A stretch of 50,230 nucleotides of DNA from a virus (lineage: Duplodnaviria; Caudoviricetes): the IMG/VR virus record IMGVR_UViG_3300030012_000996, positions 1 to 50,230 of that record; one strand, written 5' to 3'. Positions 1 through 50,230 of the stretch are shown piece after piece (position 1 is the stretch's first letter; each line of letters opens with the position of its first letter). The translations under genes were made by a program, and so were the position numbers. The notes beneath the pieces are model-generated. The model had not been told where the DNA came from and searched no databases. It worked only from the letters and a program-made list of their open reading frames with translations.

Positions 1-77
1 GATCCAGTGTCGGTATATTCATAGAAACTGCTTTCCTCTGGCAACCAAAAGGTGTAGCCTGAAAACTCGTTCTTATC
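1..77. repeat. 77-bp terminal direct repeat, identical to 50154-50230 (circular assembly overlap)
   Basis: Bases 1-77 match 50154-50230 exactly. 77 is a common assembler k-mer, and an ORF reads through the junction. Confidence 0.95.
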
Positions 78-647
78 TCTGAATGAATAGTAGTAGTCAT
101 TCGGATCGTAATAGAACTCGTCGGTATCGTCAAAGTGAATGAAGATGTTACCTCTATAAATAGCGCTTCCTTCGTCGTCTGTAGTTTCAGTGTCCTCTAT
201 ATAGACGTTGTACGTAGCCTTTTTAGGTTTCTCTAAGTTTTTACCGGACAGAGCTCGCAAGTCCTGATCATCTAATATGTTTTGATCTGGACCCAGTCCG
301 ATGATTTGCTTGAGTTCTTCTTCTGACAACTTGACTTCCGATTCAGTCTGAATGAAAGTTGACTTATACGGCAAGAAGTAATCTAAATCTTCCTGAAGTT
401 TGAGAACTTCTTCTTCCGTAAGATGATTATCCAAATTGGTTTCAAGCGGCATGTAGAACTTCATAGCCTGCTGTATTCTTTTAGTGTGGTAATCAAGAAA
501 GCCTTTGAAAACGTTTGCCCCCACAACGCGCTCCGTTTTATGGTTAGCTATGTGACTTGCATTGACAAAGGTTTTTTCAAACTTCTCTTTATCCTTAATG
601 AATAGAGAGTGTGAGTGCAATAGTTTCTGTAATACTAAATGGTTCAT
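1..647 (-). CDS. 5' part of a ~355-aa hypothetical protein spanning the contig junction (647->1, then 50153->49733)
   Basis: ATG at 647 overlaps the TGA of the 644-865 gene (ATGA). Frame MNHLVLQKLLHSHSLFIKDK... is in register with ORF 49733..50197. I checked both ends of the frame, not every middle codon. Confidence 0.8.
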   Translation of the reverse strand, partial: MNHLVLQKLLHSHSLFIKDKEKFEKTFVNASHIANHKTERVVGANVFKGFLDYHTKRIQQAMKFYMPLETNLDNHLTEEEVLKLQEDLDYFLPYKSTFIQTESEVKLSEEELKQIIGLGPDQNILDDQDLRALSGKNLEKPKKATYNVYIEDTETTDDEGSAIYRGNIFIHFDDTDEFYYDPNDYYYSFRDKNEFSGYTFWLPEESSFYEYTDTG

Positions 648-2069: not shown

Positions 2070-3284
2070 ATGTCGGAAGATATAAAGAACGCTATTTCAG
2101 ACTTAGGTCAAACCTTTGAAGAATTTAAAAAGGTCAATGACGAAAGACTGGAAAACATTGAGAAAGGCGATAGTTCAGCATATAACGAAGAAAAATTAGC
2201 CAAGTTAGAAGCCAAACTGGATTCTTACGAGGAAATGAACCAGAAGTTAACAACTGCTGAAGCTAACGCTGAACAAATCAAGGAGCAAGTTTCCAAAATT
2301 GAGACTATGGTCACCAGACCAGACTCAGGCTTTGAAAGCAAGCAAGTTGATGAGTATCTCAACGCTTTTGACAAATATTGCAGAAAAGGCATTGACGGCC
2401 TAGACGCAGTAGAGAAGAAAGCGCTAACAGTCAGCAATGACACAACAGGCGGATATTTAGCACCACCTGAGTACGTGAGAGAATTGTTAAAAACAATTAC
2501 TGAAATCTCACCTATCAGAAGTATTGCTAGAGTTCGTTCCACAGGCGCAAGAAGCATCCAAATCCCAAAAAGAGACGGACAGTTTTCAGCACAGTGGGTA
2601 TCAGAAACTGGCACTAGAAGTGAAACAACTGGCTACACAGTCGGCTTAGAAGAACTACCTGCACACGAAATGTATGCATTGGTTGATATTTCCGAGCAAG
2701 ACTTAGAAGACACAGTGTTTGACTTAGAAGCTGAAATGCAATCAGAGTTCGCAGAGCAATTTGCAAAAGCTGAAGGCAACGCATTTGTAGTCGGCGACGC
2801 AATAGGAAAACCTCATGGATTCATGGATCACTCAGGCGTGGGACATGTTAATTCAGGAAGCGCTTCTGCTGTAACTGCTGACGGACTTATTTCATTGGTA
2901 CACAACATTAAGTCTGACTACACAAGAAACGGTACTTTCGTTTTCAATAGAGCTACTTTAGCTTCTATCAGGAAATTAAAAGATACTGCTGGTCAGTACG
3001 TGTTCCAAACTGGAATGATGCTAGGTGGAAACATGGTTAACACCATTCTAGGCCACCCATACGTTGAAGCTACCGATATGCCAAGCGAAGGTTCTAACAC
3101 TTTCCCAGTTGCTTTCGGTGATTTCAGAAGAGCCTATATGATCGTTGATAGAGTAAATCTTGCTGTATTGCGTGATCCATTCACACAAGCTACAACTGGT
3201 AATGTAAGATACATTGCTAGAAAGCGTGTTGGTGGTCAGGTAATCCAGAAGGAAGCTATCAATAAACTTAAATGTTCTACTTAA
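2070..3284 (+). CDS. HK97-fold major capsid protein
   Basis: Coiled-coil delta domain, GGYLAPPE, EGNAFVVGD, ILGHPY, FGDF, LRDPF; follows the protease; AGGAG RBS. Confidence 0.96.
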   Translation: MSEDIKNAISDLGQTFEEFKKVNDERLENIEKGDSSAYNEEKLAKLEAKLDSYEEMNQKLTTAEANAEQIKEQVSKIETMVTRPDSGFESKQVDEYLNAFDKYCRKGIDGLDAVEKKALTVSNDTTGGYLAPPEYVRELLKTITEISPIRSIARVRSTGARSIQIPKRDGQFSAQWVSETGTRSETTGYTVGLEELPAHEMYALVDISEQDLEDTVFDLEAEMQSEFAEQFAKAEGNAFVVGDAIGKPHGFMDHSGVGHVNSGSASAVTADGLISLVHNIKSDYTRNGTFVFNRATLASIRKLKDTAGQYVFQTGMMLGGNMVNTILGHPYVEATDMPSEGSNTFPVAFGDFRRAYMIVDRVNLAVLRDPFTQATTGNVRYIARKRVGGQVIQKEAINKLKCST

Positions 3285-44964: not shown

Positions 44965-45522
44965 ATGAGCAAAAAACAAGCAACCACAAAACTAACTGAT
45001 TCATTGAAATTAAAAATCAGGAACGATTTTGTTCATGGTACAGGTGAGAAAGATAAAAAAAAGTTCCCCACTTTAGACGAACTAATAAAAAAATATAAAG
45101 TTGCACAAAGCACCGTTTACAGGACAGCACAAAAAGAAAACTGGAAAGTACAAAAAGACCAATTCCAACAAGACTACCTACAGAAACTTGACAAGGCACG
45201 CACTAAAGAAATGGCAGACGAGTCAATCAAGTTTGACAACAACTCAATAAATCTAGCTAAGGCCCTCTATCAAACTGTCGGGCAAGTGATTCAGAGAAAC
45301 AACAACGATATTAGAAATGGCAGAAAAGGATTACCGCCAAATCAAATAAATGCCCTAGCTAACGCAGCGGTAGTTGCGCAGCGACTGGCAAAACTTGCTT
45401 TAGGAGAAGCAACACATAACATAGATGCAAAAGTCACAGAAAATGACAGCTTCCGAAGAGCTATGGAATTGCTTGACTCAGTTGAGTCCAGCAGAAGCGA
45501 AAGCGATAGAACTACGCACTGA
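44965..45522 (+). CDS. terS: putative terminase small subunit
   Basis: N-terminal HTH (LDELIKKYKVAQSTVYR...W); directly upstream of and overlapping terL. Confidence 0.65.
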   Translation: MSKKQATTKLTDSLKLKIRNDFVHGTGEKDKKKFPTLDELIKKYKVAQSTVYRTAQKENWKVQKDQFQQDYLQKLDKARTKEMADESIKFDNNSINLAKALYQTVGQVIQRNNNDIRNGRKGLPPNQINALANAAVVAQRLAKLALGEATHNIDAKVTENDSFRRAMELLDSVESSRSESDRTTH

Positions 45523-46729
45523 CTGGCTGGAAACAGCACGTAACAAACAGCTACAACCACAAGTTGAGCATTACATATGGTTGATCTTAGCCGGAAGGGG
45601 TTGGGGTAAAACGCGTACTGGGGCACAAGACATTGCCTTATACGCACTTAGAAACCCAGACGTAACTTGCGCAGTAGTGGCTCCAACAGCAGGAGACCTA
45701 AGAAGGGTTTGTTTTGGCGGCCCGAGTGGTCTAGTTAACATAATGCCTAAAGAGTGCCTATCTACATCTAAAAGCATCAAGGGGTATTCATCAAGCATGT
45801 CGGAATTGAGATTGCACAACGGATCAAAAATAGTTGGTTATGCAGCATCAGAACCAGAGAGACTTAGAGGACCCCAGTTTCATAGAGCATGGTGTGACGA
45901 GATAGCAGCTTGGAGATACCCGGAAGCGTTTGATCAGCTAATGTTCGGATTAAGGCTAGGAGACAATCCACAATGCGTAATAACAACGACACCTAAACCG
46001 GTAAAAATCATTAAGGATTTAATGACCAGGAATGACGTAACAGTTACATCTGGAAGCACGTTTGAGAACGAGGCTAACTTAGCAGATAGCGCACTAGCAA
46101 TGCTAAGAGACAAATACGAGGGAACTACTTTAGGAAGACAGGAGCTATACGCCGAGCTAATAGAAAACATAGACGGCGCATTATGGACTAGCGCCTTAAT
46201 TGACGAGGCTAGATTTTCGGAAGATACAGAAAAAGAACTAAAGCAAATAATAGTCGCTATTGATCCGGCAGTAACCAGCGGAGAGGATTCGGACGAAACT
46301 GGAATAATGGTAGTTGGCAAAGACCATAATAATGAGTATTATGTACTTGAAGATGTTTCTGGTAGATATTCGCCAGATGCATGGGCTAGAAAAGCCATTA
46401 ATTGTTATTACGACTGGGGCGCTGATAGAATAGTCGCAGAGGTTAACAACGGTGGTGACTTGGTGGAAAGACTACTAAGGGGAATGAATGAAAACATACC
46501 CTATAGGTCTGTAAGAGCTACGAGAGGTAAAATGGTAAGAGCCGAACCTATTGCAGCACTTTATGAGCAAAGGCGTGTTCACCATATTGGCTACTTTCCA
46601 GAGCTAGAGTCACAGATGTGCAGTTATACGGGAGAGTTAAAGCCAAGTCCTGATAGATTAGACGCTTTAGTCTGGGGAATAACAGAACTAAGCAAATCAA
46701 AAGGCGAGGTAAATTGGAGAATTAGCTAA
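45425..46729 (+). CDS. terL: terminase large subunit
   Basis: AGRGWGKT, WCDE, ITTTPKP, AIDPA, SPDRLDA; true start uncertain (45443 or later). Confidence 0.96.
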   Translation: MQKSQKMTASEELWNCLTQLSPAEAKAIELRTDWLETARNKQLQPQVEHYIWLILAGRGWGKTRTGAQDIALYALRNPDVTCAVVAPTAGDLRRVCFGGPSGLVNIMPKECLSTSKSIKGYSSSMSELRLHNGSKIVGYAASEPERLRGPQFHRAWCDEIAAWRYPEAFDQLMFGLRLGDNPQCVITTTPKPVKIIKDLMTRNDVTVTSGSTFENEANLADSALAMLRDKYEGTTLGRQELYAELIENIDGALWTSALIDEARFSEDTEKELKQIIVAIDPAVTSGEDSDETGIMVVGKDHNNEYYVLEDVSGRYSPDAWARKAINCYYDWGADRIVAEVNNGGDLVERLLRGMNENIPYRSVRATRGKMVRAEPIAALYEQRRVHHIGYFPELESQMCSYTGELKPSPDRLDALVWGITELSKSKGEVNWRIS

Positions 46730-48747
46730 TGGCAGAACAAAACTTTTTTCAAAGACTGTTCAACAGACAACCAGTTGAACAAAAAAATTCAAACATGATG
46801 GGATATTTTGGTGTTGGCACAGATGAAGCCAAGACATATAAATATGCGGACTTGGCAAAGGAAGGCTACCTTAAGAACGCAATCGTCTACCGATGCGTTA
46901 ACGAGATTTCCAAAGGAGCAAGCGCTGTACCCTTCATAATCAAAGCCGGTGATCAGATATTAGAGGAACACCCACTGATAAGCCTACTTAACAGACCTAA
47001 CCCCCTTCAATCATATAGTGAATTCTTTAACAGTCTATTCGGATATGTATTACTAAGCGGTAACGCCTACATTCTAAAAACAGGTAGCGATATGGGAGCG
47101 CCTAAGGAATTGCACCAGCTAAGGCCCGATCGCATAAACATCAAAGGCAGTGGCAAACCGATTCCTGATAAGTACGAATACATGGTCAACGGTAGGGTCG
47201 CAGCAACGTACCTAGTTGACCAGGAGAATGGATTCAGCGAACTCAAACACGTCAAACTCTGGAACCCACTTGACGATTACTACGGACTAAGTCCAATGAG
47301 TGCCGCAGCAGTAGAGGTTGACCAGTTCAACATGTCAAGCAAGCATAACGTTAATCTTCTGCAGAATGGAGCAAGACCGAGCGGTGCTGTTGTATTCAAG
47401 CCCCAAGATGATCAAGGTTTCGCCGTAAATCTTACAGAGTCACAAAGACAGCAGCTATTGACAGACATGAACAATAGATTCTCGGGGGCGAACAACGCAG
47501 GACGGCCCATGCTACTGGAGGGAGACTTTGACTGGAAGGAAATGGGCATGAGCCCTAAGGACATGGACTTCCTAAATCTTAAGCACATGAGTGCGACGGA
47601 TATAGCGCTGTGTTTCGGAGTGCCGAGCCAACTCGTAGGCGTTCCAGACAGCCAGACCTATTCTAACGTAGCAGAAGCAAGACTGGCTCTGTATGAGGAA
47701 ACAATCATTCCACATTTGAGAAAACTTTCGTCAGACCTTAACGAGTGGTTGGTGCCATTGTTTGACGATCGTTTAACATTAGAGTTTGATATTGACTCTA
47801 TTCCTGCATTATCAGAAAGAGTTAAAAGAACATATGAGAATGTGACTTCTGCAGTAAGAGAAGGAATAATGACCAGGAATGAAGCGAGAGAACAGTTAGG
47901 GCTAGAGCCTAAAGACGGTGCAGACGACCTATACATATCAGCTACTTTGTTTCCGCTTGGAGACGGTGACGTAGAGAGACCGGAGAACCCAGTCAATGAC
48001 GAGGACATGGAAGACTACGAAGACGAGGAGATTGATAAGGAGATAGCATTACTTCTAGCAGAAGAAAAGGCGTTATCAGACATAAACACAGTACCGACAA
48101 ACTCTATGGCAGAGGAAGCTGCTAGAGGCCTTGAATGGAGAAGAAAGTACAAGCGTGGCGGAACTGCTGTAGGCGTTGCACGTGCTAACCAGCTTATGAA
48201 CAAGGAAAGGTTGTCAATTTCCACTGTCAAGAGAATGCATAGCTACTTTAGCAGGCACGAGGTTGACAAAAGAGCGGAAGGTTTCAGACAGGGCGAAAAG
48301 GGTTATCCTAGCGCAGGTAGAATCGCTTGGGCTCTCTGGGGCGGAGACGCAGGTCAATCCTGGGCGAAAAAGGTAAGGGACCAGATAGAGCGCGAAGAAA
48401 ACAAGAGCGACGAAGACGAACACATACACACCGTAGAGGACACGAAAGAACTTACCGGCAAAGTTAAAAAGGCTCTGCAGAAAAAGGTTGACGACCATAA
48501 TGAGAAGTACGGAGATAATCCAGCCAAGAGAGCTACTCTTAGAATGTTAGAAGCTGTATTCCGTAGGGGAGTGGGAGCCTATAGAACGAACCCCCAAAGC
48601 GTAAGACCGAACGTTACCGGTCCTGATCAATGGGCATATGCTCGCGTGAACGCATTTATGGTTGCCCTAAGGACTGGAAGATTTAGGAATAAGCCTTTTG
48701 ACACAGACCTATTGCCGAAGGAACACCCACTGTCAAGTAAGACCTGA
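46729..48747 (+). CDS. HK97-family portal protein with two C-terminal passenger domains
   Basis: YGLSP, NGARPSG, CFGVP, MTRNEAR within the first ~420 aa, then ~240 extra residues. Confidence 0.93.
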   Translation: MAEQNFFQRLFNRQPVEQKNSNMMGYFGVGTDEAKTYKYADLAKEGYLKNAIVYRCVNEISKGASAVPFIIKAGDQILEEHPLISLLNRPNPLQSYSEFFNSLFGYVLLSGNAYILKTGSDMGAPKELHQLRPDRINIKGSGKPIPDKYEYMVNGRVAATYLVDQENGFSELKHVKLWNPLDDYYGLSPMSAAAVEVDQFNMSSKHNVNLLQNGARPSGAVVFKPQDDQGFAVNLTESQRQQLLTDMNNRFSGANNAGRPMLLEGDFDWKEMGMSPKDMDFLNLKHMSATDIALCFGVPSQLVGVPDSQTYSNVAEARLALYEETIIPHLRKLSSDLNEWLVPLFDDRLTLEFDIDSIPALSERVKRTYENVTSAVREGIMTRNEAREQLGLEPKDGADDLYISATLFPLGDGDVERPENPVNDEDMEDYEDEEIDKEIALLLAEEKALSDINTVPTNSMAEEAARGLEWRRKYKRGGTAVGVARANQLMNKERLSISTVKRMHSYFSRHEVDKRAEGFRQGEKGYPSAGRIAWALWGGDAGQSWAKKVRDQIEREENKSDEDEHIHTVEDTKELTGKVKKALQKKVDDHNEKYGDNPAKRATLRMLEAVFRRGVGAYRTNPQSVRPNVTGPDQWAYARVNAFMVALRTGRFRNKPFDTDLLPKEHPLSSKT

Positions 48748-48766
48748 TTCAGACGTTGATTGGAGT

Positions 48767-49591
48767 ATGCGTTTGAATCGGGCACATAATCAAAAAAAAA
48801 TAAACAACTTCAGACAGGGCCGTATAAACTCTAGGCTTGAAGTTAGACGACAGCTTGTCCTAAGAAACAACCTAGAAAAAAGATTTTTTAGAAAGCTAAA
48901 CACGCTATTTAGAAAGTTCATCAATGTTCATATGCATCTATATAAACAATATGGGATATACGAGCAGGGCGTAGCAGCCGAAAGTCTTAACGAAGACCTT
49001 TTCCCTTTGATGCTTTCGCATTACCGCAGAACATTCCAAGCAATGTATAAGTTCAACGAAGATAAATACGAGAGAATGAGAAAGGCGGAAGAAGCCTTCG
49101 TTTTCGGTAGAAGCACCGACTTTGAAGCCGTAGTTAACGAATACTTCAATAGCAGACAGTTAATACTGTCTGGAATATCAGCAAGACTAGCGAGTAGAAT
49201 TTCAAGAACCATTGAAATAGCCAGAGCTGAAAACCTCACGTTGCCACAGATAGCAAAACTCGTTTCGGATAAGTTTTTACCTATAGGAAGAAGTCGGGCC
49301 GCTTTGATAGCCAGGACTGAAACCCATAATGCCGCTTCATTTGCTAACCACTCATACCACCTAAGCGTAGAGAGAGACTTAGGCGTAAAAATGCAAAAGC
49401 AATGGGTAGCGACCAACGACGCCAGAACCAGACAGACTCACGCTGCGGCAAGTGGACAGACCGTAGACATGTCGGAAGATTTCATTGTAGGCGGTGTGCC
49501 TATGAGTTTTGCAGGAGACTCAAGGGGTGGTGCAGCTAACGTTATTAACTGCAGGTGTGTAATAGTCTACGCGGACGAGAGGGATATGTAG
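48767..49591 (+). CDS. minor head protein (SPP1 gp7 / Mu gpF family)
   Basis: RAALIARTET, KQW....D.RTR.TH, INCRC; GGAG RBS. Confidence 0.9.
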   Translation: MRLNRAHNQKKINNFRQGRINSRLEVRRQLVLRNNLEKRFFRKLNTLFRKFINVHMHLYKQYGIYEQGVAAESLNEDLFPLMLSHYRRTFQAMYKFNEDKYERMRKAEEAFVFGRSTDFEAVVNEYFNSRQLILSGISARLASRISRTIEIARAENLTLPQIAKLVSDKFLPIGRSRAALIARTETHNAASFANHSYHLSVERDLGVKMQKQWVATNDARTRQTHAAASGQTVDMSEDFIVGGVPMSFAGDSRGGAANVINCRCVIVYADERDM

Positions 49592-49686
49592 CTAGTGTGA
49601 TAGGGAACAAACAGGAGACGCACTTGGAATTCCCTACCTCGCAGCTTCACTAGCAAAACTGTTAACGTACCAAGTGGTTTTCATGC
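49591..49686 (-). ncRNA. candidate small kissing-loop/pseudoknot RNA
   Basis: Three 7-bp and one 5-bp perfect complementary pairs within ~90 nt; TATAAT on the minus strand at 49698-49693. Strand is inferred. Confidence 0.45.
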
Positions 49687-49715
49687 ATATTTATTATACA
49701 CCATGAATTTAGGCT

Positions 49716-49748
49716 AAAAGACGGCCCACAGATCAGTGGGCTTTATTT
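49716..49748. terminator. hairpin, probably a bidirectional terminator
   Basis: GGCCCAC-AGATCA-GTGGGCT with T-rich flanks on both strands; contains the stop of the leftward gene. Confidence 0.55.
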
Positions 49749-50230
49749 ACTATCTCGTAATCCTTAGTAACTATGCCAATATCCTTGTTACCTCTGAAGT
49801 GAGCTTTGACAAAGCTGATTTTTCCGTCTCTATATCTTCTGATGTGCTTCCTGACAGCGTGGAATGCTCTACCTTCGCTGTTCCCAGTGCTTTTACAATC
49901 ACCCTCTGTCGTTCCAAACAAATCAAGTTTCAAAACCTTGTGCTCATACTTAGGCTTTGCGCGTAACTCCGAAACGGAAAACTTTTTGCTCAAAGGCACT
50001 AACTTAGCGTTTTCCTTAGTGATTCCTTTCACACTAGATGTGTTAGTTATCTGTGGATAGGTAAGCATAAGACATAACCTACAATGAACGTTGAGTATCA
50101 TACCAACGAAATTGTTTAGGCTTGCGTTGTTGTACATACCGCCGTGTGTGTCCGATCCAGTGTCGGTATATTCATAGAAACTGCTTTCCTCTGGCAACCA
50201 AAAGGTGTAGCCTGAAAACTCGTTCTTATC
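49733..50230 (-). CDS. 3' part of the junction-spanning ~355-aa protein
   Basis: C-terminal HAVRKHIRRY..G....VKAHFRG....G...KDY basic motif. Confidence 0.8.
   Translation of the reverse strand, partial: DKNEFSGYTFWLPEESSFYEYTDTGSDTHGGMYNNASLNNFVGMILNVHCRLCLMLTYPQITNTSSVKGITKENAKLVPLSKKFSVSELRAKPKYEHKVLKLDLFGTTEGDCKSTGNSEGRAFHAVRKHIRRYRDGKISFVKAHFRGNKDIGIVTKDYEIVNKAH
50154..50230. repeat. copy of bases 1-77
   Basis: Exact match. Confidence 0.95.

What the first reader, a model, noticed from the sequence alone, without database searches (positions are those of the whole stretch)
49591..49700. Compact kissing-loop RNA candidate inside the head gene cluster
Seen: GCTAGTG (49591-97)/CACTAGC (49648-54) and TAGGGAA (49601-07)/TTCCCTA (49630-36) form one long hairpin. 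AAAAC (49655-59)/GTTTT (49677-81) forms a second. Their loops hold perfectly complementary 7-mers, CACTTGG (49621-27) and CCAAGTG (49670-76). A minus-strand TATAAT lies just upstream, after the terminator of the leftward gene. The large loop on the minus strand also exposes UCUCCU, complementary to this phage's AGGAGA RBS. Inference: a small RNA that could act as an anti-SD regulator, a pseudoknotted antitoxin-like decoy, a partner of the neighbouring His/Arg-motif protein, or (speculatively) a hand-in-hand oligomer like phi29 pRNA given its place beside portal and terminase genes.
Basis: partly seen in the sequence, partly recalled or inferred. Interest (0 to 1): 0.7.

Follow-up and report, generated by a model that had tools for sequence, protein, structure and literature searches.

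The report
Conserved pseudoknotted small RNA in marine phages
Next to a head-assembly gene of an uncultured marine phage lies a roughly 100-base RNA element whose long hairpin and loop-to-leader pairing are preserved by matching mutations in related phages, so it is very probably a real folded RNA, of a kind not yet catalogued and of unknown function.

Summary
In the window alone the signal is only borderline. The fold z-scores are -1.8 and -2.0, and a perfect 7-mer complement arises in 1.6% of shuffles.

Relatives settle the question. Homologues occur in about 13 viral or metagenomic contigs, giving 8 distinct sequences of 4 types. They share:
- a 7-bp outer stem (P1);
- an 11-position inner stem (P2);
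- a 7-bp helix (PK) between the 5' leader and the first bases of the P2 loop.

All three helices are kept by compensatory changes. P1+P2 pair in 118 of 118 cells and PK in 45 of 45; no shuffle out of 500 reached these values. With the window included, PK pairs in 49 of 49 cells.

G·U pairs occur only in the minus sense (12 G·U, 0 A·C), so the RNA is leftward.

The element is a discrete module of about 110 nt, running from a -10-like box to P1. It sits flush against the Mu F-like gene's stop codon and has been exchanged between phages independently of its neighbours. It matches no Rfam family. Function is inferred: most likely a compact stable small RNA gene. The 16-codon ORF is not the conserved feature. 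The protein-partner and pRNA-like readings are not supported, and the anti-SD reading was not borne out.

The parts
49693..49698 (-). -10-like hexamer TATAAT. It marks the 5' edge of the conserved module and is the putative promoter element of the RNA.
   Evidence: Sequence. A TAWAAT hexamer lies 12-16 nt upstream of the PK 5' strand in all 7 segmented sequences. Similarity between L003 and the L070 type begins here, while the 150 nt further upstream are about 51% identical. The scan tool found no full sigma-70 promoter with a -35, so promoter function is inferred.
49677..49692 (-). 5' leader between the -10-like box and the pseudoknot strand.
   Evidence: Substitutions at 49685 and 49686 in DNA contigs of two other runs fall here, in unpaired sequence.
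49670..49676 (-). PK 5' strand (minus-sense CACUUGG).
   Evidence: It ends 15 nt before P1 in all 7 sequences. It pairs with 49621-49627. Six of the 7 pairs covary, and 49 of 49 cells pair against 7-32 of 49 when the partner is slid. On the 7 non-window sequences the tool count is 45 of 45.
49655..49669 (-). 15-nt linker (minus-sense UACGUUAACAGUUUU), containing the conserved ACAGU.
   Evidence: Its length is invariant at 15 nt in all 7 sequences. One natural substitution, at 49663, is tolerated.
49648..49654 (-). P1 5' arm (minus-sense GCUAGUG).
   Evidence: Pairs 1 and 2 covary (G-C/U-A and C-G/U-A).
49639..49647 (-). Asymmetric internal loop, 5' side (minus-sense AAGCUGCGA), with the conserved A-N-GCUG.
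   Evidence: The loop is 9-14 nt in the relatives and lies opposite a single A.
49628..49638 (-). P2 5' arm (minus-sense GGUAGGGAAU plus one unpaired U).
   Evidence: The helix has 11 positions; 7 pairs changed on both sides and 100% of cells pair.
49621..49627 (-). PK 3' strand (minus-sense CCAAGUG), the first bases of the P2 apical loop.
49610..49620 (-). Rest of the P2 loop (minus-sense CGUCUCCUGUU), with the conserved GUCUCY..GUU.
   Evidence: The substitution at 49610 in other runs falls here.
49599..49609 (-). P2 3' arm (minus-sense UGUUCCCUAUC).
49598..49598 (-). Single bulged A between P2 and P1.
   Evidence: Invariant in all 7 sequences.
49591..49597 (-). P1 3' arm (minus-sense CACUAGC) and the 3' edge of the conserved module. 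It overlaps the last base of the Mu F-like gene's stop codon (TAG, 49589-49591).
   Evidence: In L003, L046, L070, L086 and L087 the TAG stop of the Mu F-like gene lies inside this arm.
48698..49591 (+). Mu F-like minor head protein gene. It converges on the RNA module.
   Evidence: Pfam Phage_Mu_F, E 4.3e-14.
49723..49742 (.). Bidirectional terminator-like hairpin between the leftward cargo gene and the RNA module.
   Evidence: It is not conserved in the L070 type, where the upstream ORF's stop codon directly precedes the -10-like box.
49733..50230 (-). 3' part of leftward cargo gene 'protein X'. It continues over the circular junction to window 78-647. It is context, not part of the RNA.
   Evidence: No Pfam or PHROG family was found.

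Best explanation
Window 49591-49698 holds a self-contained module of about 110 nt that encodes a compact leftward (minus-strand) RNA of roughly 95-100 nt.

Shown by covariation:
- The RNA forms a long bipartite hairpin: a 7-bp P1, then an asymmetric internal loop (9-14 nt opposite one A), then an 11-position P2.
- Its 5' leader pairs over 7 bp with the first bases of the P2 apical loop. This gives an H-type pseudoknot in which the PK helix can stack on P2.
- The linker is a fixed 15 nt.

Shown by comparison:
- The module begins at a -10-like TAWAAT box and ends exactly at the 3' arm of P1. That arm abuts or contains the stop codon of the convergent Mu F-like head gene.
- It lies at the edge of a hypervariable slot for leftward accessory genes, between the Mu F-like gene and the protease/capsid genes.
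- It has moved between phages independently of both neighbours.

Inferred:
- It is a small RNA gene of the 'moron' type. It is transcribed from its own -10-type promoter. Where no terminator precedes it, it is also transcribed as the 3' end of the accessory operon.
- The fold buries both ends: the 5' end in the pseudoknot and the 3' end in P1. This makes a nuclease-resistant RNA that displays conserved single-stranded motifs (ACAGU in the linker, GCUG in the internal loop, GUCUCY in the loop) to a partner.
- The partner could be an RNA, including the fully complementary 3' end of the late terminase-portal-Mu F transcript, or a protein. It is not known which.
For: Homologues. There are 8 distinct sequences of 4 types. 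They were found by pattern and protein-anchored scans (67/68) and confirmed with a covariance model. That model gave 10 matches at E <= 2e-13 over 41 sources and 267,379 bases, with no second copy in the window.

P1 and P2.
- 118 of 118 cells pair, a value reached by 0 of 500 shuffles.
- 8 pairs changed on both sides (9 of 500 shuffles).
- The covariation score is 0.527 against a shuffled mean of 0.213.
- Slid controls pair in 25-48% of cells.

PK.
- On 7 non-window sequences, 45 of 45 cells pair (0 of 500 shuffles); slid controls give 28-67%.
- On a structure-anchored alignment that includes the window, 49 of 49 cells pair against 7-32 of 49 when slid, and 6 of 7 pairs covary. One pair shows a stepwise G-C / G·U / A-U series across L003, L086 and L070.
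- The PK 5' strand ends 15 nt before P1, and the PK 3' strand starts at loop offset 0-1, in every sequence.

Strand. Over 175 cells there are 161 Watson-Crick, 12 G·U, 0 A·C and 2 other. A plus-sense RNA would carry those 12 as mismatches.

Module and mobility.
- L003 versus L086/L070: the element is 89% identical, but the adjoining 300 nt of the Mu F-like gene are 68-70% identical and the upstream 150 nt about 51%.
- Window versus L003 shows the reverse: 63% for the element against 78% for the gene.
- On the Mu F tree the element needs 4 gains or losses over 36 rows.
- The neighbour on the cargo side differs between lineages: protein X, or an Arc-like gene plus a Pyr_excise gene.

Natural variation. 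All 4 substitutions inside the element seen in contigs of two other runs fall at unpaired positions.

Promoter context. The phage's leftward operon has a TTAACT-18-TATAAT promoter-like site, so TATAAT-type -10 boxes are plausible in this host.
Against: - There is no expression evidence. No RNA run holds the stretch, so strand and ends are inferred only.
- No -35 element was found, and the promoter scan found no full sigma-70 site here.
- No U-tract follows P1, so it is unclear how a 3' end would form.
- Diversity is narrow (4 types; the L003, L086 and L070 types are close), so many 'conserved' unpaired bases may only reflect limited divergence.
- The two CM alignments used for the tool counts were fitted to the structures tested. 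My PK alignment that includes the window is anchored on P1 and P2 rather than made blind. The PK-only model aligned the window only at E 0.13 and in another register.
- In the window alone the fold is not significantly more stable than shuffles.
- No target or partner was identified.
Confidence: 0.55

Rival explanations
1. It is not a separate gene but the 3'-terminal element of the leftward accessory operon. A very stable pseudoknotted structure would stop 3'-to-5' exonucleases, or RNA polymerase, at the border with the convergent Mu F-like gene. This would stabilise the accessory mRNAs and shield the late gene from antisense read-through.
For: It is always the last feature of the leftward cargo block and lies flush with the Mu F stop codon. 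In the L070, L086 and L087 types no terminator separates the last ORF's stop codon from the element. The conserved module ends exactly at the base of P1.
Against: In the window a terminator-like hairpin with a T-run lies upstream of the element, and L046 keeps a GTGGGCCGT-plus-T-run remnant of it. Leftward mRNAs should therefore largely end before reaching the element. A plain stabiliser hairpin would not need a covarying pseudoknot, a fixed 15-nt linker or conserved loop motifs. Most relatives with leftward cargo lack it: 39 of 41 Mu F loci.
Confidence: 0.2
2. The folded RNA is a new functional class acting through its tertiary structure. It could be a self-cleaving ribozyme that defines transcript ends, or a protein-binding decoy that serves counter-defence in an accessory-gene island.
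For: The helix and linker lengths are fixed, a single A is bulged, and the junction and loops carry conserved unpaired motifs. The module is mobile. The neighbours are accessory genes. They include a protein whose nearest ESM-Atlas clusters partly carry the AcrVA2-like family (15-46% of members, score 0.97), and small Arc-like or HTH regulators.
Against: There is no match to any ribozyme or other family in Rfam, even at E <= 10. The order of helix strands (PK, P1, P2, PK', P2', P1') is not, from my recollection of HDV-like, pistol, twister or hammerhead folds, that of any of them. The anti-defence reading of the neighbours is only a lead: no Pfam, PHROG or PDB sequence match was found. Nothing here tests cleavage or binding.
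Confidence: 0.12
3. The functional strand is the plus strand. The hairpin would be a 3'-UTR element of the terminase-portal-Mu F late transcript, for example a stabiliser or an antitermination signal ahead of the terminator at 49723-49742.
For: P1 and P2 are inverted repeats, so they can also form in the plus sense. The Mu F stop codon lies in or at P1, and a plus-strand terminator-like site follows in the window.
Against: All 12 G·U cells would become A·C mismatches in the plus sense, while no cell is A·C in the minus sense (G·U counts also). In the plus sense the PK of L003 would lose 2 of 7 pairs and that of L086 would lose 1. The downstream terminator is not conserved in the L070 type.
Confidence: 0.05
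4. It is a DNA-level feature, either a recombination or insertion site of the cargo slot (attC-like folded single strand) or paired protein-binding half-sites, and not an RNA.
For: It sits at the border of a hypervariable cassette slot and is exchanged between phages. Structure is conserved more than sequence.
Against: A third helix that crosses the hairpin (a pseudoknot) with covariation is not expected for attC-like sites or operators. There is one copy per locus, not one per cassette. Inverted half-sites of a DNA-binding protein would stay identical, whereas here the departures are all of the G·U type in one sense. I did not search these loci for an integron-type integrase.
Confidence: 0.04
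6. The conserved feature is the 16-codon minus-strand ORF (a small peptide).
For: An ATG-initiated 16-codon ORF exists in the window.
Against: It is not conserved. In L003 the only ATG gives 6 codons in another register. The L070, L086 and L087 types have no ATG in the leader. The L046 ORF differs in frame and sequence.
Confidence: 0.01

Closest known systems
Candidate structured RNAs of phages predicted from IMG/VR intergenic regions (csRNAs 'DNAVirus_X', PMC10690425; passages read, supplements closed)
   Same: Both are short (29-151 nt) covariation-supported RNA motifs in uncultured phage contigs of IMG/VR, mostly of unknown function. The present element is found in the same collection.
   Different: I could not see the motif lists, which are in the supplements, so I cannot say whether this motif is among the 8495. 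The text passages I searched do not mention portal or head genes (0 occurrences each). The pseudoknot described here would in any case not be captured by nested-structure models.
Cis-antisense small RNAs of temperate phages at convergent gene ends (lambda OOP, P22 sar; recalled from general knowledge, not from a call)
   Same: A short leftward RNA with its own promoter, lying against or overlapping the 3' end of a rightward phage gene, inside or next to a regulatory or accessory cassette (in P22 with Arc-type repressors).
   Different: Those RNAs end in an intrinsic terminator and act through extended antisense overlap. Here the conserved module overlaps the Mu F-like gene by only 1-6 nt, has no U-tract, and its hallmark is a conserved pseudoknot.
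H-type RNA pseudoknots (structural class)
   Same: A hairpin loop pairs with sequence outside the hairpin. The pseudoknot strand directly continues the stem (0-1 nt), which allows coaxial stacking. The remaining loop (11-17 nt) is long enough to cross a 7-bp helix.
   Different: The outside strand lies 5' of an additional closing helix (P1), so the 15-nt linker has to run back along P2 and P1. No known family in Rfam has this sequence and structure.
phi29 pRNA (Rfam family; features recalled)
   Same: A small phage RNA of about 100-120 nt with two mutually complementary loop segments, encoded in a tailed phage.
   Different: There is no model match. The packaging machinery differs. The element is dispensable among close relatives. 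The pairing is 7 bp rather than 4, and the geometry fits an intramolecular fold.
Exoribonuclease-resistant viral RNAs (xrRNA; PMC11929477 seen in a search listing only)
   Same: A compact knot-like fold in which a pseudoknot involves the 5' region. The likely consequence is nuclease resistance.
   Different: This is an analogy only. The host domain, the enzymes, and the sequence and topology all differ, and nothing was tested.

Membership tests
Any Rfam 15 family (including pRNA, ribozymes, phage and marine-metagenome motifs) | Covariance-model score at or above the family's gathering threshold | tested here: not met
   The whole window gave 0 matches. At E <= 10 on 49540-49760 there were only three sub-threshold hits on the plus strand: OmrA-B 17.3 bits against 40, sn3060, and isrD.
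H-type pseudoknot (structural class) | Hairpin-loop bases pair with a strand outside the hairpin, supported by covariation | tested here: met
   A 7-bp helix pairs in 49 of 49 cells including the window and in 45 of 45 by tool count without it, with 0 of 500 shuffles as high.
Kissing-loop complex of two hairpins | Both complementary segments lie in the apical loops of stable, conserved hairpins | tested here: not met
   The stem around the 5' segment is absent from the MFE fold in the window. It is 4 bp in the L003 type and about 3 A-U pairs in L046. The leader alone folds at only -1.9 to -4.6 kcal/mol.
phi29-type pRNA | Belongs to a phage with a phi29-type packaging motor and is needed by it, so it is present in all close relatives | tested here: not met
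   The large terminase has Terminase_6N and 6C domains and the portal is Phage_portal. The element is present in 2 of 41 related Mu F loci, which are 1 distinct sequence.
phi29-type pRNA | Intermolecular loop-loop pairing giving oligomeric rings | not testable with these tools
   Complementarity exists, but sequence cannot tell intra- from intermolecular pairing.
Cis-antisense sRNA of the OOP type | Own promoter | tested here: inconclusive
   A -10-like TAWAAT is conserved in all sequences, but no -35 was found and the promoter scan gave no hit.
Cis-antisense sRNA of the OOP type | Intrinsic terminator and substantial antisense overlap with the target gene | tested here: not met
   No T-run follows P1, and no terminator-like site was reported there. 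Conservation ends at P1, 1-6 nt into the gene end.
Type III toxin-antitoxin antitoxin RNA (ToxI-like) | Tandem repeats of a short pseudoknotted unit upstream of the toxin gene | tested here: not met
   There is a single copy in the window and in each locus. It lies downstream of the neighbouring gene, not upstream, and the neighbour varies.
Integron attC-like folded recombination site | One site per cassette and a linked integron integrase | tested here: inconclusive
   There is one copy per locus even where 4 small cassette-like ORFs are present. The pseudoknot is not an attC feature. An integrase was not searched for.

The most novel reading that the evidence does not exclude
The element is a new class of mobile, self-contained phage RNA 'moron' that acts through its tertiary fold. 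It could be an RNA decoy or inhibitor serving counter-defence in an accessory-gene island lodged inside the head-gene cluster, or a new small self-cleaving ribozyme that sets transcript ends at a convergent gene border.
Probability: 0.12. Interest if true: 0.8.

Novelty: new member of a known kind. Interest (0 to 1): 0.55.

Why it matters
Few phage-encoded small RNAs have a structure supported by covariation, and hardly any come from uncultured marine phages. Here a tertiary contact (the pseudoknot), the strand and the module borders can all be read from natural variation alone. That gives a well-defined construct of about 100 nt for probing, cleavage and binding assays.

Its behaviour as a discrete unit that hops between phages, independently of both flanking genes, suggests that RNA genes take part in the same accessory-gene traffic as protein 'morons'.

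If it proves to be a decoy or a ribozyme, it would add a new RNA class. If it is an ordinary antisense or stability element, it is still a clean example of one inside a structural-gene cluster.

Tried and rejected
- Expression: no RNA holder was listed for window 49300-50000. The four runs laid were DNA contigs only.
- Earlier notes of this scan: nothing by place or by sequence.
- Phage GenBank collection: blastn with window 48700-50230 found no match. tblastn with the portal found no close cultured relative (best 42% over 56% of the query), so the host stays unknown.
- Bacterial and archaeal genomes: a 22-base pattern scan found 0 hits, so no prophage copy or host clue. The second scan that was allowed was not used.
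- Pattern scans give many chance hits. Of the 28 stretches, I judged 4 homologous by eye. Of the 13 new loci, 1 was homologous (L096).
- Tool alignments for the pseudoknot:
  - MAFFT and the P1/P2 models put gaps inside the PK strands of the window and L046.
  - A PK-only model aligned L046 in a 5-bp register. It caught the window only at E 0.13, misaligned, together with one junk row.
  - I therefore used a P1/P2-anchored alignment in a script for the window.
- Trans-target search: complements of the loop and linker motifs in the window gave only matches resembling generic ribosome-binding sites (21 against 11.5 expected; 9 against 5.4).
- tRNA/tmRNA: none in the window.
- Protein X:
  - No Pfam, PHROG or PDB sequence match was found.
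  - 31 homologues had no name or domain.
  - The AlphaFold model was too poor (mean pLDDT 44.2), so I ran no fold search.
  - Only the ESM-Atlas lead to AcrVA2-like clusters remains.
- Literature: two full-text searches found no description of this motif. The supplements of PMC10690425, which list 8495 IMG/VR motifs, could not be opened, so prior listing there cannot be excluded.
Full report
WHAT THE WINDOW IS

The window is a complete 50,230-base virus record with a 77-base terminal repeat, so it can be read as a circle. Around the finding the genes run as follows:
- large terminase, 45425-46729 (Terminase_6N/6C);
- portal, 46729-48747;
- a Mu F-like minor head protein, 48698-49591, all three on the plus strand;
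- the element;
- a bidirectional terminator-like hairpin, 49723-49742;
- two leftward genes: 'protein X', which crosses the junction to window 647, and a 73-codon ORF at 644-865;
- on the plus strand again, a protease/scaffold-like gene (957-2057) and the major capsid-like gene (2070-3284). I named these last two by position and by homology with the relatives, not by a family search.

The leftward pair has a promoter-like site, TTAACT-18-TATAAT, at 923->894. No close cultured relative exists in the phage collection. The DNA recurs in marine metagenome runs of several studies.

CHECK OF THE OBSERVATION

The window alone is not compelling:
- The 166-nt folds have z-scores of -1.98 and -1.76.
- A perfect 7-bp match between leader and loop arises in 1.64% of shuffles, or 22% if G·U is allowed.
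- The scan found no full sigma-70 promoter.
- No Rfam family matches.

HOMOLOGUES

- A protein-anchored scan found 41 viral loci with a Mu F-like relative (68-82% identity, one at 48%).
- The DNA after the stop codon is hypervariable. It holds different leftward ORFs, or runs directly into the protease gene.
- Only L003 and L004, which are identical, carry the element there.
- Of 11 loci with a protein X relative, one (L046) has the element.
- Pattern scans added L070, L086, L087 (identical to L088 and L089 over the stretch shown) and L096 from viral contigs. They added L082 and L084 from metagenomes, plus re-finds. Bacterial and archaeal genomes gave none.
- A covariance model found all of these at E <= 2e-13 and nothing else in 41 sources, including the whole window.
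- That leaves 8 distinct sequences of four types: the window; L046/L082; L003; and L086/L096/L070/L087.

STRUCTURE

Segmentation in the minus sense gives the same architecture in every sequence:
- the -10-like TAWAAT box;
- a 12-16-nt leader;
- the 7-nt PK strand;
- a 15-nt linker of invariant length;
- the P1 5' arm (7 nt);
- an internal loop of 9-14 nt with A-N-GCUG;
- the P2 5' arm (11 positions);
- the PK partner at loop offset 0-1;
- 11-17 more loop bases with GUCUCY..GUU;
- the P2 3' arm;
- one A;
- the P1 3' arm.

Tool counts on a model-made alignment for P1 and P2:
- 118 of 118 cells pair, a value reached by 0 of 500 shuffles.
- 8 pairs changed on both sides.
- The covariation score is 0.527 against 0.213.
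- Slid controls pair in 25-48% of cells.

For the pseudoknot on the seven non-window sequences, 45 of 45 cells pair, 0 of 500 shuffles reach this, and slid controls give 28-67%. These alignments were fitted to the tested structures, which favours them.

With the window included, on an alignment anchored only on P1 and P2, the pseudoknot pairs in 49 of 49 cells against 7-32 of 49 when slid. Six of seven pairs covary. Examples of the two 7-mers are CACUUGG/CCAAGUG in the window, CUGAGAG/CUCUUGG in L003 and CUAAAAG/CUUUUAG in L070. One pair runs G-C, G·U, A-U through L003, L086 and L070.

In the L003 type the leader-loop pairing can extend to 16 bp with a 2-nt bulge, and in L046 to 8+4 bp. In the window it cannot. 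The 7 bp are therefore the conserved core.

It is absent from the window's MFE fold, is 4 bp in the L003 type and has no real stem in L046. The fold is a leader-to-loop H-type pseudoknot, not a pair of kissing hairpins.

STRAND

Over P1, P2 and PK in seven sequences there are 161 Watson-Crick cells, 12 G·U, no A·C and 2 other. A plus-sense RNA would carry the 12 as mismatches. The functional strand is therefore the minus strand.

NATURAL VARIATION

Natural variants of the window type, seen in contigs of two other runs, change four bases inside the element (49610, 49663, 49685, 49686). All four are unpaired positions. This is weak support only.

A DISCRETE, MOBILE MODULE

- The element's neighbour on the cargo side differs between lineages. 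It is protein X in the window, L003 and L046. In L070, L084, L086 and L087 it is an Arc-like 58-63-residue ORF (phrog_582, E 5e-4), followed in L084 by a pyrimidine-dimer glycosylase-like gene.
- The L087 contig carries protein X elsewhere, followed by an HTH gene.
- On the Mu F tree the element needs four gains or losses over 36 rows.
- L003 shares 89% identity with L086/L070 across the element, but only 68-70% in the adjoining 300 nt of the Mu F-like gene and about 51% upstream. The window and L003 show the reverse, 63% against 78%.
- Similarity begins at the -10-like box and ends at P1. P1 overlaps the gene's stop codon by one base in the window and contains it in the other types.

So the unit that is conserved and exchanged is exactly 'box plus RNA'.

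HOW IT MOST LIKELY WORKS

Shown: a folded leftward RNA module with a pseudoknot, and its strand, borders and mobility.

Inferred:
- It is a small RNA gene with its own -10-type promoter. In the window a terminator-like hairpin, and in L046 a remnant of it, precedes the element. This favours separate transcription.
- In the L070 type it would also be the tail of the accessory operon.
- The fold hides both ends, which should make the RNA long-lived. It leaves conserved single-stranded motifs exposed for a partner.
- I cannot say what the partner is. The late transcript's complementary 3' end is the obvious cis target. A trans target search gave nothing specific.

Rivals:
- A 3'-end stability or insulator element (0.2).
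- A fold-based function such as a decoy or a ribozyme (0.12).
- A plus-strand element (0.05).
- A DNA site (0.04).
- A pRNA-like oligomer (0.02).
- A small peptide (0.01).

COMPARISON AND NOVELTY

- No Rfam family matches.
- The closest published set is the 8495 IMG/VR candidate RNAs of PMC10690425. I could not open its lists, so prior listing cannot be excluded.
- In function it resembles convergent antisense sRNAs of temperate phages, but it lacks their terminator and their overlap.
- In structure it is an H-type pseudoknot with an extra closing helix.

I rate it a new member of a known kind (a phage structured small RNA), real but narrowly distributed and of unknown function.

Noticed in passing
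window 49733-50230 and 78-647 (-); L003 4058-5230 (-); L044 1880-2983 (+): 'Protein X' (330-390 aa) has an invariant C-terminal AFH-x-VRKH...AHFRG motif. Its nearest ESM-Atlas clusters partly carry the AcrVA2-like family (15-46% of members, score 0.97). The AcrVA2 preprint reports functionally essential C-terminal H286/R288/H291 (passages read). In L044, L045, L047, L048, L050 and L053 the gene is followed directly by a 66-residue HTH gene, as in acr-aca pairs. No Pfam, PHROG or PDB sequence match was found, and the AlphaFold model was poor. This is a lead only.
   Followed up: partly
between the Mu F-like gene and the protease/scaffold gene: window 49592-50230 plus 1-956; L003-L043: This slot is a hot spot for leftward accessory genes. 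Its content differs from lineage to lineage: protein X, an Arc-like gene, a Pyr_excise glycosylase-like gene, and several small ORFs of no family. It is empty in L032 and L035-L041, where the protease gene follows directly.
   Followed up: partly
window about 955-1005; the same position in L032, L035-L038: A similar AT-rich motif (TTGTGC, about 17 nt, then TACTAT) precedes the protease/scaffold gene both in phages with cargo and in phages without it. This suggests that the capsid genes have their own promoter and that the slot lies between two transcription units. Seen by eye, and not tested.
   Followed up: no
window 46729-48747 (portal ORF, residues 456-671): The portal ORF has a C-terminal extension of about 215 residues. 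It is 58-60% identical to a region annotated 'major capsid protein' in Roseobacter phages CRP-701, CRP-821, CRP-822 and CRP-831, and it has a weak DUF5824 match.
   Followed up: no
L003 3888-3997 (-), L070, L086, L087: In this type the leader-loop complementarity extends to 16 bp with a 2-nt bulge (duplex -17 kcal/mol, shuffle p 0.003-0.007). That is probably too long to coexist with P2 given the 6 remaining loop bases. In addition, the leader's CACUGG can pair with the P1 5' arm. Alternative conformers are therefore possible.
   Followed up: partly
window 1-77 = 50154-50230: There is a 77-base direct terminal repeat, so genes run across the window's ends.
   Followed up: yes
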